A stretch of DNA of 64,000 bases from assembly GCF_009914755.1 (NCBI RefSeq), contig NC_060926.1. One strand, given 5' to 3'. This document shows, piece by piece, positions 50,121 to 52,405 of this stretch. Position numbers and translations under genes: made by a program. The first letter of the stretch is position 1, and every line of letters starts with the position of its first letter. Source of the stretch: the human T2T-CHM13v2.0 reference genome, Homo sapiens. The notes below the pieces were generated by a model that was given only the letters and a program-made list of their open reading frames with translations, searched no databases and was not told the origin of the DNA.

Positions 50121-52405
50121 GTGAGGCACAGCCAGGAGATCAGGGATTGGATGTGGCCTCTTTACCTGACCTGGGATCTTACTCCCTTGACTTCCCTTTG
50201 ACCTGTATCTCATCCTCAGATCGTGACCATTTGGAAGAAGAAACAGCCAAATTCTTCACTCAAGTACACCAAGCCATTAAAACGTTACGAGATGGTGAGG
50301 AAGCCAAGAGCCCCAGGGCCTTGGGGCTTGGGTTGACAAAGGCCCACCCTCCAAGGCATTCTCAGAGGCCCATGTGGCCATGGGTGGGAGGTCTTGTGAA
50401 GGTGGGAGATGAATGCAGTCTGTCTCCGTGTGCTCTTTGGAACTTCCATGTAGAAACAAGGGTCTGAAAACCCAACCTTGAGCAAGTTGTAACCCTGAAC
50501 ACCCCTTCCCTCCTGCTCTACCCAGATAAAACAGTACTTCTGGAAGAGATCTACACGCACAAGAATCTCTTTACTGAGAGGCTGAATAAGATATCTGATG
50601 GGCTGAAGGAGAAGGGTAAGGGGTGGGGACGATCCCTGCACACGGCCTAGCCCTCCACACCTGCCAAGACCCAAGGCATGCAGATTTCACTCTGCAGCCC
50701 CCTCGATCATCCCCAGGAGCCCCACCCCTCTCCATGAATGCCTTCCCGGCTCCATCTCCTACTTGCACCCCAGAACCCCTTGGCTCTGTCTGCCTCCCCA
50801 GCACCTCAGTTTCTCTACCTTCTCACCCTCCCTGGCAGCCTGCAATGAGTCCTGTGGTGAGTATGCATGGGGACTGGGCCTGGGGGAGGGATGAAAGGCA
50901 CCTGGCACCCCCTAGCCCCTGTCCCTCCCCTCCCATAGACATACAGTCCACACTGAAGGTCACCAGCTGTGCTGACTGCAGGACTCACTTCCTCTCCTGC
51001 AATGACCCCACTTTCTGCCCAGGTCAGTGGCCACCACCCTGTCCAGCCTCTCCCCTCCCTGCCCTGCATTTCTGGAGCCATTGCTGTCTCTGTCATTCTC
51101 TTTTGCCCAACTCAAGCTTTTCTTGTTCTTTATCCTCACCCTGGGTGAAGGCAGCACCTTCTGGGATTTCTTGATGTCCTCATGTCAAGCTCCAGAGCCC
51201 CTTGGAGGCATCTGCCTGTAGGACATCACTCATGGAGGCCTCTTGGTTCTCAGAGATGCCATGCCTAGAAACATGACCAATCCTTACTCAGGAGGCTGAG
51301 GCAGGAGAGTCGCTTGGACCCGGGAGGTGGAGGTTGCAGTGAGCCGAGATCATGACACTGCACTCCAGGCTGGGCAACAGAGCAAGACTCTGTTTCAAAA
51401 AAAAAAAAAAGAAAGAAAAAAGAAAAGAAAAAGAAAAATGCCCAATCCCATCGAACCCCCAAACCTGTTCTTCCTCCAGGGCCGTTCTCAACAAATGGCC
51501 CCACTCAAGCCCTCAGTCTCCTAAACCAGGAATCTCCCTCCACTTAGCACGGAGAATCACCATGTCTTGCTAAATAAGTCTTCTATGTGTTCCCATAGTT
51601 TCATTCTAACCTCCACTCTCAGGCCTCCTCATCTCTCATCTAACTTACAGCAACATTTCCCATTAGCCTCCCTGTCCCTCCAGGCCACATCACACTCTGA
51701 ACTTCTTCTCAACGAGCAAGTCTACCCATGACACTCCCTGCTTATAACCAGCAGTGGTTCCCAAATGCCCCTAGAGAAAGCCCACCCTCCTCGGGAGCCC
51801 CCTACTCCCCAGGCACACTAAGTGCATACAGGCAGCTCCATACCTCTATCCTTGAGCGTGTCCTGTGCCGGGGACACAGCCTTGCCCTTGAACTGATCCC
51901 TTATTTGTGTTTCCAAGTCCAGCTCAGACTCCTGTTTTCTAAGAAGCTTTCCCTGATCAGCTCCCACCCCAGAGGCTTGTCAGCCATCCTCACTGTCACT
52001 TCCCCTCCCATGTCCTGTCCTATTTCCCTTGAACCCCACACCATGATTGTTTGCTTGTCTAGATATGAGCTGGGCGCACAGCGTGCTCAGTAAGTGTTTG
52101 CAAACACATCATGAGTGAACGAATCAAAGAATGAGAGGATGGTGGCCTTCTCTCTGAGTTGAGGTAGCCCTGCCTGGCCTCCAAACACCTGGCTTCCTCT
52201 TTCACACCCCAGCCAGGAACCGGCGGACCTCCCTGTGGGCTGTGAGTCTCAGCAGTGCTCTACTCCTGGCCATAGCTGGAGGTGGGTGAGTGACCTCTCC
52301 AAGCCCCAGCATCCCCAGGGAAGACACACCTATTCCCTGACTGACTCCACCCTGTTTCTTGGCCCAGATGTTTCTTTTACTGGCAAAGGAAGAAGGAGGC
52401 AGTAA
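49922..52405 (+). CDS. TEX51: TEX51 short isoform (166 aa): join(49922-50066,50220-50294,50526-50615,50939-51022,52213-52281,52368-52405)
   Basis: 501 nt = 166 aa + TAA. Reads ...TELSQ/NRDHLEEE...KEK/DIQS...[16 protein letters not shown], matching my recollection of the database TEX51 protein. Confidence 0.8.

What the first reader, a model, noticed from the sequence alone, without database searches (positions are those of the whole stretch)
50839..50856. Hidden 18-nt microexon (ACNESC) supplies the missing CxxxC of an Izumo domain in TEX51
Seen in sequence: an 18-nt symmetric phase-1 exon inside what looks like intron 3, with a long pyrimidine tract ending CAG, a GTG|GTGAGT donor, and flanking introns of 223 and 82 nt. 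Including it gives [36 protein letters not shown]. Established: the IZUMO1 hinge reads [31 protein letters not shown], with disulfides C22-C149, C25-C152, C135-C159 and C139-C165. The spacing x3/x10/x2/x6/x5 versus x3/x9/x2/x6/x5 is nearly identical. Inference: without the microexon (as in the 166-aa protein I recall), two cysteines lose their partners. The microexon also carries the only N-glycosylation sequon I see (N-E-S). It is invisible in the ORF track and short-read aligners often miss exons this small.
Basis: partly seen in the sequence, partly recalled or inferred. Interest (0 to 1): 0.9.

Follow-up and report, generated by a model that had tools for sequence, protein, structure and literature searches.

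The report
Annotated TEX51 microexon supplies hinge cysteines
An 18-base exon of the human sperm gene TEX51 is skipped in the reference transcript but already listed in RefSeq; it encodes two cysteines that relatives of the fertilization protein IZUMO1 carry on the same kind of tiny exon, so the reference protein is probably an incomplete form.

Summary
Window 50839-50856 is an 18-nt, phase 1-1 exon with an AG acceptor and a GTGAGT donor. Its flanking introns are 223 and 82 nt, and it inserts ACNESC between exon 3 and the hairpin exon.

It is not hidden. The hub table lists it among other RefSeq TEX51 transcripts, and a human RefSeq protein (isoform X7) carries ACNESC.

The exon is old. An x-C-x3-C segment at this junction occurs in models of 54 of 82 named species: eutherians, echidna, turtles and squamates. 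Turtle isoform pairs differ by exactly these 6 residues.

The structural reading holds by homology. Pfam IZUMO is detected in 8 of 10 proteins with the segment and 1 of 9 without. In the human genome, four IZUMO-family loci and TMEM95 each encode their first hinge Cys pair on an 18-27-nt phase-1 microexon in front of the hairpin exon. Published disulfides (IZUMO1 C139-C165; TMEM95 C105-C134, C109-C128) use those cysteines.

TEX51 as an IZUMO-like (IST) protein was published in 2025. The exon is real and annotated. The share of human transcripts that include it was not measurable here.

The parts
49922..50066 (+). TEX51 exon 1 coding part as in the selected transcript: signal peptide and the N-terminal CXXC (CLRC, residues 18-21).
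   Evidence: C18 and C21 are invariant in alignment A1 (24 sequences). The donor AAA|gtattc matches the consensus at 5 of 9 positions.
50067..50120 (+). In-frame 54-nt extension of exon 1 (18 aa) used by other transcripts. The selected transcript lacks it.
   Evidence: Hub table lists exons 49893-50120. Searches show the extended exon in most orthologue models. The donor TTG|gtgagg matches at 6 of 9.
50220..50294 (+). Exon 2 (75 nt, phase 1-1), helical part.
50526..50615 (+). Exon 3 (90 nt, phase 1-1), last helix. It ends with a G that starts the split Ala codon.
50616..50838 (+). Intron of 223 nt upstream of the microexon, with a pyrimidine tract and a CTCAC branch-point candidate 14 nt from the acceptor.
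50802..50838 (+). Alternative upstream acceptor (exon 50802-50856 in other transcripts). In human it shifts the frame and gives a stop.
   Evidence: Hub table; translation.
50839..50856 (+). The 18-nt phase 1-1 microexon. It encodes A-C-N-E-S-C: the first Cys pair of the hinge and an N-E-S sequon.
50857..50938 (+). Intron of 82 nt between the microexon and the hairpin exon.
50939..51022 (+). Exon 4 (84 nt, phase 1-1): beta-hairpin with CADC, then two further Cys with C-x6-C-x5-C spacing.
   Evidence: All four Cys are invariant in A1, A2 and A3.
52213..52285 (+). Exon 5 (transmembrane segment) with two donors, 52281 (selected transcript) and 52285. They give different C-termini.
   Evidence: Hub table.
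52368..52407 (+). Exon 6. It holds the stop codon of the selected transcript.
52875..53100 (+). Last exon. It is coding in the 52285-donor isoforms.

Best explanation
Window 50839-50856 is a genuine, ancient coding microexon of TEX51. The gene encodes a testis-specific type I membrane protein of the IZUMO1-SPACA6-TMEM95 (IST) fold.

What the sequence shows. The exon sits between the last helix of the four-helix bundle (exon 3) and the beta-hairpin exon (exon 4). It adds six residues, A-C-N-E-S-C.

What is inferred by homology to solved relatives. The two cysteines form two disulfides with the two cysteines that follow the hairpin CXXC (residues 148 and 154 of the 190-aa form). These bonds would staple the membrane-proximal linker back onto the end of the bundle. 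The two CXXC motifs link the hairpin to helix 1'. The connectivity could be 1-3/2-4, as in IZUMO1 and SPACA6, or 1-4/2-3, as in TMEM95.

Other inferences. N124 (N-E-S) is a probable N-glycan site in eutherians. Skipping the exon, as in the RefSeq-selected transcript and the 166-aa UniProt entry, keeps the frame but leaves those two cysteines without their homologous partners. Because the selected transcript also lacks 18 residues of the bundle and uses a donor that shortens the transmembrane segment, it is probably not the structurally complete protein.

Why there are so many isoforms. All internal coding exons are phase 1-1 and multiples of three, so any exon can be skipped in frame.
For: Sequence anatomy and chance controls.

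Annotation: the hub table lists the exon. Human RefSeq isoform X7 carries ACNESC.

Conservation:
- Of the 172 TEX51-like database proteins retrieved up to, 52 have the segment plus the hairpin and 15 have the segment without the hairpin exon. The segment is x-C-x3-C in 66 of 67, with a CN.[ST]C sequon in 60 of 67.
- Among 82 named species, 52 have at least one model with it, plus Natator and Pangshura.
- Same-species isoform pairs differ by exactly the six residues in siamang and in two sea turtles.

Pfam IZUMO (PF15005):
- 20 of 24 segment-bearing proteins match at E<=1, and the match ends on the last hinge Cys at profile position 143 of 143.
- In one search, 8 of 10 proteins with the segment match and 1 of 9 without. 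The identical-but-for-6-aa pair scores 16.3 bits versus no match.

Gene structure in the same genome:
- Four loci that match Pfam IZUMO and TMEM95 each have exactly one phase-1 microexon of 18-27 nt encoding C-x3/4-C just upstream of the hairpin exon.
- In shuffles, 3-8 of 500 give any such candidate per locus (TMEM95 not included).
- The upstream exon ends in phase 1 with G and the split codon is Ala in TEX51, the IZUMO1 locus and TMEM95.

Residue numbering from these exons reproduces published disulfide partners: IZUMO1 C139-C165 (PMC12615630, legend) and TMEM95 C105-C134 and C109-C128 (PMC9546558, passage). SPACA6 has Cys124-Cys147 and Cys128-Cys153 with the same C-x3-C-x10-CXXC spacing as TEX51 (PMC9482655, passage).

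The ESM Atlas places the protein next to IZUMO3 (0.95), TMEM95 (0.89) and IZUMO2 (0.88). This is a lead only.
Against: - The RefSeq-selected transcript and the UniProt canonical 166-aa protein skip the exon (hub table; PMC12615630).
- 50 of 102 hairpin-bearing database models lack the segment.
- 28 of 82 named species show no model with it, though most of these are represented by a single model.
- Two segment-bearing proteins (P0016, P0154) gave no Pfam IZUMO match. The human-like form scores 15.8 bits, under the 25-bit cut-off.
- The frog protein has C-x2-C instead of C-x3-C.
- No transcript counts, no peptide evidence and no structure model could be obtained here, so disulfide formation, glycan occupancy and the inclusion level in human testis are all untested.
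Confidence: 0.85

Rival explanations
1. In human testis the exon is a minor, low-inclusion alternative. The skipping form (the selected transcript) is the main product, either because human TEX51 tolerates the loss or because the human gene is under relaxed constraint.
For: - RefSeq's selected transcript and UniProt's canonical entry skip the exon (hub table).
- New World monkey models of 166 aa have the same form.
- Human TEX51 has Val at residue 38, where 138 of 145 database proteins have Gly, and all 6 with Val are human or human-like.
- The only human database protein seen here with the segment (X7) lacks the hairpin exon.
Against: - The splice sites are as good as those of the constitutive exons.
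- The segment is conserved from squamates to apes.
- The selected transcript also uses the weakest donor of the gene (5 of 9), which suggests it was not chosen for being structurally complete.
- Human isoforms with both the segment and the hairpin would be hidden inside 90% clusters headed by ape proteins, so their absence from the list says nothing.
Confidence: 0.25
2. Inclusion is a regulated switch. Both forms are made on purpose, giving one protein with a stapled hinge and one with two free cysteines after the hairpin (a redox-sensitive or oligomerising form).
For: - Both forms are modelled in 9 of 82 named species, including two sea turtles.
- Forms that keep the microexon but skip the hairpin exon recur in primates, a loris, one turtle and P0155 (15 of 172).
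- CXXC motifs of this family are discussed as redox sensors (PMC9482655).
Against: - Gene models with and without a microexon are also what imperfect annotation produces.
- The fully symmetric exon phases make in-frame noise likely.
- Cattle show 33 TEX51 transcripts by long reads (PMC11170998), which fits splicing noise as well as regulation.
- No stage- or tissue-specific data were available.
Confidence: 0.15
3. The AG...GT-bounded open segment is a chance pattern in intron 3 and not an exon.
For: Short AG..GT open segments are common in introns. Shuffled intron sequence yields 6.5 in-phase candidates on average.
Against: - Only 35 of 2000 shuffles give a C-x3-C candidate.
- The exon is in RefSeq (hub table).
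- The peptide is conserved in 54 of 82 named species.
- Five paralogous loci have the same exon.
Confidence: 0.01

Closest known systems
IZUMO1 exon encoding Y-C-P-N-K-C (locus C19:51.74 Mb of the same genome; named IZUMO1 from its N-terminal CVIC, its hinge sequence and the published residue numbers)
   Same: Phase 1-1 microexon immediately upstream of the hairpin exon. It ends one base after the second Cys codon and has a gtgagt donor. The upstream exon ends in G, giving an Ala split codon. It encodes C-x3-C. Cys139 on it forms the solved C139-C165 bond (PMC12615630, legend).
   Different: It is 21 nt rather than 18. There are 9 rather than 10 residues to the hairpin CXXC and no sequon. The intron to the hairpin exon is 649 nt rather than 82. 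It belongs to the protein as numbered in print, whereas TEX51's reference transcript skips its exon. IZUMO1 goes on into an Ig-like domain and TEX51 does not.
TMEM95 exon encoding L-C-P-P-A-C (C17:7260020-7260040)
   Same: 21-nt phase 1-1 microexon in front of the hairpin exon, with an Ala split codon and a gtgagt donor. Like TEX51, the protein has no Ig-like domain and passes from the hinge into the membrane anchor (PMC9546558; PMC12615630).
   Different: The solved connectivity is nested, C105-C134 and C109-C128 (PMC9546558). The N-glycan sequon lies in the hairpin (N-C-S), not in the microexon.
SPACA6 hinge (crystal structure, PMC9482655)
   Same: Cys124-x3-Cys128-x10-139CXXC142, then two Cys spaced x5. 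Cys124-Cys147 and Cys128-Cys153 tie a hinge loop to the following linker. TEX51 with the microexon has the same x3/x10/x2 spacing.
   Different: There are x4 rather than x6 residues between the CXXC and the next Cys, and an Ig-like domain follows.
TEX51 as published (Dupuis et al. 2025, PMC12615630; Andrology 2025, PMC12917576)
   Same: The same gene. The papers describe a four-helix bundle, beta-hinge, two CXXC motifs and a membrane anchor. They note that the canonical 166-aa form models poorly and that isoforms of 190 aa or more give a proper bundle.
   Different: The main text never uses the words microexon, splic- or cysteine. It does not say which exon supplies the extra hinge cysteines. 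Its Supplementary Table 1 and Fig. 2 are PDFs that I could not read and may show this.

Membership tests
IST superfamily / Pfam IZUMO (PF15005) | CXXC on the short N-terminal helix | tested here: met
   CLRC at residues 18-21 (exon 1). Both Cys are invariant in 24 of 24 sequences of A1.
IST superfamily / Pfam IZUMO (PF15005) | Second CXXC at the tip of the hinge beta-hairpin | tested here: met
   CADC in exon 4, invariant in A1, A2 and A3.
IST superfamily / Pfam IZUMO (PF15005) | Hinge Cys pair (C-x3/4-C) before the hairpin and two Cys (x5 apart) after it | tested here: met
   Met only when 50839-50856 is included. Without it the first pair is missing.
IST superfamily / Pfam IZUMO (PF15005) | Score over Pfam's gathering cut-off (25 bits) | tested here: inconclusive
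   The human-like 190-aa orang-utan form scores 15.8 bits. Two orthologues pass (26.5 and 31.4 bits). 20 of 24 match at E<=1. Single human exons give no match, and the six-frame genome search did not list the TEX51 exons.
IST superfamily / Pfam IZUMO (PF15005) | Distorted four-helix bundle with a triangular face | not testable with these tools
The feature is reported from AlphaFold models in PMC12615630 and PMC12917576.
IST superfamily / Pfam IZUMO (PF15005) | Disulfides from the first hinge Cys pair to the two post-hairpin Cys | not testable with these tools
   Inferred from IZUMO1, SPACA6 and TMEM95 structures as described in papers. No model or experiment for TEX51 was obtained here.
IST superfamily / Pfam IZUMO (PF15005) | Shared gene structure: a phase-1 microexon for the first hinge Cys pair in front of the hairpin exon (a feature proposed here, not a published criterion) | tested here: met
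   TEX51, four IZUMO-matching loci and TMEM95 all have it.
Conserved coding microexon | 30 nt or less, multiple of three, canonical AG/GT | tested here: met
   18 nt with cag| and |gtgagt.
Conserved coding microexon | Encoded peptide conserved across distant species | tested here: met
   54 of 82 named species, from squamates and turtles to apes.
Conserved coding microexon | Transcript support and inclusion level in human testis | not testable with these tools
   Only annotation is available: the RefSeq exon list in the hub table and the human isoform X7 protein. No read data could be reached.
N-glycosylation site | N-x-S/T sequon in the lumenal/extracellular part | tested here: met
   N-E-S is the only sequon in the 190-aa human form. 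CN.[ST]C occurs in 60 of 67 segments. Non-eutherians have CS.SC. Occupancy was not tested.

The most novel reading that the evidence does not exclude
The reference human TEX51 (selected transcript, 166 aa) would not be the working protein, and microexon use would be a regulated switch conserved since the amniote ancestor. Inclusion gives a hinge stapled by four disulfides. Skipping gives a protein with two unpaired cysteines next to a CXXC pair, able to form mixed disulfides or to act as a redox-sensitive or dominant-negative partner during acrosome formation. One corollary holds whichever reading is right: variants in or beside 50839-50856 are read as deep intronic against the reference transcript, yet could be causes of male subfertility.
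Probability: 0.15. Interest if true: 0.6.

Novelty: already known. Interest (0 to 1): 0.35.

Why it matters
Work on TEX51 usually starts from the selected transcript or the canonical UniProt entry. This covers antibodies, expression constructs, AlphaFold models and variant interpretation in infertile men. That form lacks a six-residue segment carrying two cysteines which, in solved relatives (IZUMO1, SPACA6, TMEM95), make two structural disulfides. It also lacks 18 residues of the helical bundle and uses a donor that shortens the membrane anchor.

Two practical consequences follow. Constructs built on the 166-aa form may misfold. Splice-site or cysteine variants at the microexon would be annotated as intronic.

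The family-wide microexon (TEX51, four IZUMO-family loci, TMEM95) is a small, clean piece of evidence that these genes share an ancestor. It could also help gene prediction avoid dropping this exon: half of the hairpin-bearing database models lack the segment.

Tried and rejected
- Pfam on single human exons gave no family.
- Sequence searches of the Protein Data Bank found no IZUMO1, SPACA6 or TMEM95 chain. These used TEX51 profiles, the hinge peptide alone and the echidna protein. No residue-level alignment to a solved chain was therefore possible.
- A profile search of 1.84 billion representatives returned 68 proteins. All looked like TEX51 orthologues or fragments, and no paralogue was reached.
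The planned comparison of matched models with and without the six residues (alignments A3 and A2) was not done.
- Earlier findings were not open.
- I tried to infer from lengths whether the UniProt isoforms of 190 and 203 aa hold the microexon. The result is ambiguous. Among all combinations of annotated exons, 3 of 4 that give 190 aa and 2 of 4 that give 203 aa include it.
A version short enough to be accepted would be expected to hit hundreds of places, so SPACA6 gene structure was left unexamined.
- Paper searches gave 0 papers for TEX51 with microexon, 0 for IZUMO with microexon, and nothing relevant for microexons with testis and spermatid.
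Full report
THE OBSERVATION

Window 50839-50856 reads CCTGCAATGAGTCCTGTG. A pyrimidine-rich tract ending in cag precedes it: 15 of 18 bases at -20..-3 are pyrimidines. The donor gtgagt follows it.

Exon 3 of TEX51 ends at 50615 and the next exon of the selected transcript starts at 50939. The segment is therefore flanked by introns of 223 and 82 nt.

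The coding sequence is in phase 1 here. Inclusion adds exactly A-C-N-E-S-C and leaves the following Asp codon as it was. N-E-S is the only N-x-S/T sequon in the 190-aa human form assembled by coordinates. The donor matches the MAG|GTRAGT consensus (recalled) at 7 of 9 places, like exons 2, 3 and 5.

Pattern alone is weak evidence, but it is not nothing:
- The real intron holds 4 in-phase open AG..GT candidates, and one of them has two Cys.
- 35 of 2000 shuffles of the intron give any C-x3-C candidate.

The stretch is single copy in the genome.

IT IS NOT HIDDEN

The hub's RefSeq table lists 50839-50856, and a longer form 50802-50856, among exons of other TEX51 transcripts. The longer form shifts the frame and gives a stop in human.

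A word-indexed protein search with the extended exon 1 returned 109 TEX51 proteins of mammals. One is human isoform X7, which carries ACNESC but skips the hairpin exon. Many ape and monkey isoforms carry ACNESC too.

CONSERVATION

I gathered 172 TEX51-like proteins and sorted them with regular expressions:
- 52 have an x-C-x3-C segment in front of the hairpin.
- 50 have the hairpin without the segment.
- 15 have the segment joined directly to the transmembrane exon.
- 55 have neither. Most of these are fragments or read-through models, and a few of them hold the segment behind retained intron.

The segment is x-C-x3-C in 66 of 67 cases. It reads CN.[ST]C, a sequon, in 60 of 67. The exceptions are a degu (ACSEPC), four non-eutherian proteins later named (echidna, a turtle, a lizard and a frog), and two proteins that remained unnamed.

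Two further searches gave names to the distant proteins:
- Turtles carry VCSASC.
- Ten of 13 hairpin-bearing squamate models carry [IVL]C[SG].SC.
- Echidna carries ACSPSC.
- A frog carries a C-x2-C variant.

Over 82 named species, 52 have at least one model with the segment. Natator and Pangshura were missed there by a position filter but are visible, which gives 54 of 82. Most of the remaining species are represented by a single model.

Same-species isoform pairs differ by exactly six residues at this junction. This holds in siamang, where 198 of 204 residues are identical with one 6-residue gap. It also holds in the green and leatherback turtles. An 18-nt cassette at this junction therefore probably predates the split of mammals and sauropsids.

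DOES IT BELONG TO THE IZUMO-TYPE HINGE?

Three lines of evidence say yes.

(a) Pfam. Twenty of 24 segment-bearing proteins match Pfam IZUMO (PF15005) at E<=1. The match ends exactly on the last hinge Cys, at profile position 143 of 143.

A paired test used natural isoforms and orthologues. Eight of 10 proteins with the segment matched IZUMO at E<=10, against 1 of 9 without. The siamang pair scored 16.3 bits versus no match, and a lemur pair scored 19.1 bits versus no match. Two segment-bearing proteins (P0016, P0154) did not match. The human-like form stays under the 25-bit cut-off, so formal Pfam membership is borderline.

(b) Gene structure of the paralogues in the same genome. A six-frame search with PF15005 found exons at four loci: C19:51.74 Mb, C9:24.55 Mb, C19:53.25 Mb and C19:2.07 Mb. 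A search with the TMEM95 model found C17:7.26 Mb.

The first locus is IZUMO1. From recalled map positions the other three are IZUMO3, IZUMO2 and IZUMO4.

In every one of these loci, a single phase-1 AG..GT segment lies just upstream of the hairpin exon. It ends one base after its second Cys codon and encodes the first hinge Cys pair:

| Locus | Length | Peptide |
|---|---|---|
| C19:51.74 Mb (IZUMO1) | 21 nt | YCPNKC |
| C9:24.55 Mb | 18 nt | CSEDC |
| C19:53.25 Mb | 21 nt | CNPKLC |
| C19:2.07 Mb | 27 nt | RIDCQHRC |
| C17:7.26 Mb (TMEM95) | 21 nt | LCPPAC |

For TEX51 and the four IZUMO loci, the scan found exactly one such candidate within 1 kb. Only 3-8 of 500 shuffles gave any.

In TEX51, IZUMO1 and TMEM95 the upstream exon ends in phase 1 with G, and the split codon is Ala.

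(c) Solved disulfides. Joining microexon and hairpin exon reproduces the published residue numbers:
- In IZUMO1 the last microexon Cys lies 10 residues before Cys149. It is therefore Cys139, which bonds Cys165 (PMC12615630, figure legend). Cys149 and Cys152 are confirmed in PMC13599313 (passage).
- In TMEM95 the microexon Cys are 105 and 109, with Cys128 and Cys134 after the hairpin. The crystal structure has C105-C134 and C109-C128 (PMC9546558, passage).
- SPACA6 has Cys124-Cys147 and Cys128-Cys153, with C-x3-C-x10-CXXC spacing identical to TEX51 (PMC9482655, passage).

In solved relatives, then, the homologous cysteines bond the two cysteines that follow the hairpin. For TEX51 this is inference. 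The connectivity may be of either type.

WHAT IS ALREADY IN PRINT

Dupuis et al. 2025 (PMC12615630; I read the outline, the discussion and many passages) place TEX51 in the IST superfamily from AlphaFold models. They note that the canonical 166-aa form models poorly, and that three UniProt isoforms of at least 190 aa give a proper bundle. They show hypofertility and acrosome and flagellum defects in knock-out mice.

An Andrology 2025 paper (PMC12917576, passages) finds Tex51 knock-out males fertile, with over 80% of sperm showing head malformations.

The main text of PMC12615630 holds no occurrence of microexon, splic- or cysteine. Its isoform table and figure are PDFs that I could not read. 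Full-text searches found no paper holding TEX51 with microexon, or IZUMO with microexon.

The link between this exon, the hinge cysteines and the family-wide gene structure may therefore be unstated in print. It follows directly from existing annotation, however.

THE REFERENCE ISOFORM

The selected transcript differs from the conserved full form in three places:
- It uses the donor at 50066 (5 of 9 consensus matches, the weakest in the gene) instead of 50120, which removes 18 residues.
- It skips the microexon.
- It uses donor 52281 instead of 52285. This replaces the end of the transmembrane helix and a basic stop-transfer stretch with [12 protein letters not shown].

All internal coding exons are phase 1-1 and multiples of three: 75, 90, 18, 84 and 69 nt. 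Any skip therefore stays in frame. This fits the 25 RefSeq transcripts in human and the 33 long-read transcripts in cattle (PMC11170998).

How much of the human testis message includes the microexon could not be measured here. That is the main open point.

VERDICT

It is already annotated, and the family assignment is already published. The remaining value is practical. The reference protein is probably an incomplete form, and variants at the microexon would be read as intronic against it.

Noticed in passing
window 50033-50035: Human TEX51 has Val (gtg) at residue 38 in the motif LW-x-TPGPP. Of 145 database TEX51 proteins with the motif, 138 have Gly, and all 6 with Val are human or human-like. 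It is a human-lineage change at an otherwise almost invariant position. Whether it is fixed or polymorphic is unknown.
   Followed up: partly
window 50066 and 50120: The selected transcript ends exon 1 at the weak donor AAA|gtattc (5 of 9) rather than at TTG|gtgagg. This drops 18 in-frame residues that most orthologue models contain.
   Followed up: partly
window 52281 and 52285: Two donors 4 nt apart give two C-termini. One is a short form ending [12 protein letters not shown] (selected transcript). The other continues the transmembrane helix (GGCFFYW...) into a basic stretch. Among the 172 proteins retrieved up, a regular expression found 24 of the first kind and 51 of the second. Both kinds recur across mammals.
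   Followed up: partly
window 50220-52281: All internal coding exons are phase 1-1 and multiples of three: 75, 90, 18, 84 and 69 nt. Every exon skip is in frame, which may explain the unusual number of isoforms.
   Followed up: yes
window 50939-51022: Isoforms that keep the microexon but skip the hairpin exon recur in human X7, chimpanzee, gorilla, macaque, orang-utan, gibbon, squirrel and owl monkeys, slow loris, a green turtle isoform and the unnamed protein P0155 (15 of 172).
   Followed up: no
window 44101-48825 (minus strand): The lncRNA LOC105373603 lies head to head with TEX51, about 1 kb from its start (hub table). PMC12615630 calls the similarly placed mouse lncRNA Gm44577 mouse-specific. 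A positional counterpart seems to exist in human. Sequence relatedness was not tested.
   Followed up: no
P0158 and P0169 (database proteins): NCBI names a TEX51 in the frog Pseudophryne corroboree, and a newt (Pleurodeles waltl) hypothetical protein also matches. PMC12615630 describes TEX51 as conserved in mammals, lizards, snakes and turtles. The family may reach amphibians.
   Followed up: partly
G000 C19:51.74 Mb, C9:24.55 Mb, C19:53.25 Mb, C19:2.07 Mb, C17:7.26 Mb (loci L009-L014): The microexon for the first hinge Cys pair varies in length (21, 18, 21, 27 and 21 nt) and in Cys spacing (x3, or x4 at C19:53.25 Mb). It keeps its phase and its 3' boundary.
   Followed up: yes
window 52063-52202: An extra exon of other transcripts (hub table) appears in part in a macaque isoform, as an insertion after the last hinge Cys (P0016). 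Its effect in human was not worked out beyond the length table.
   Followed up: no
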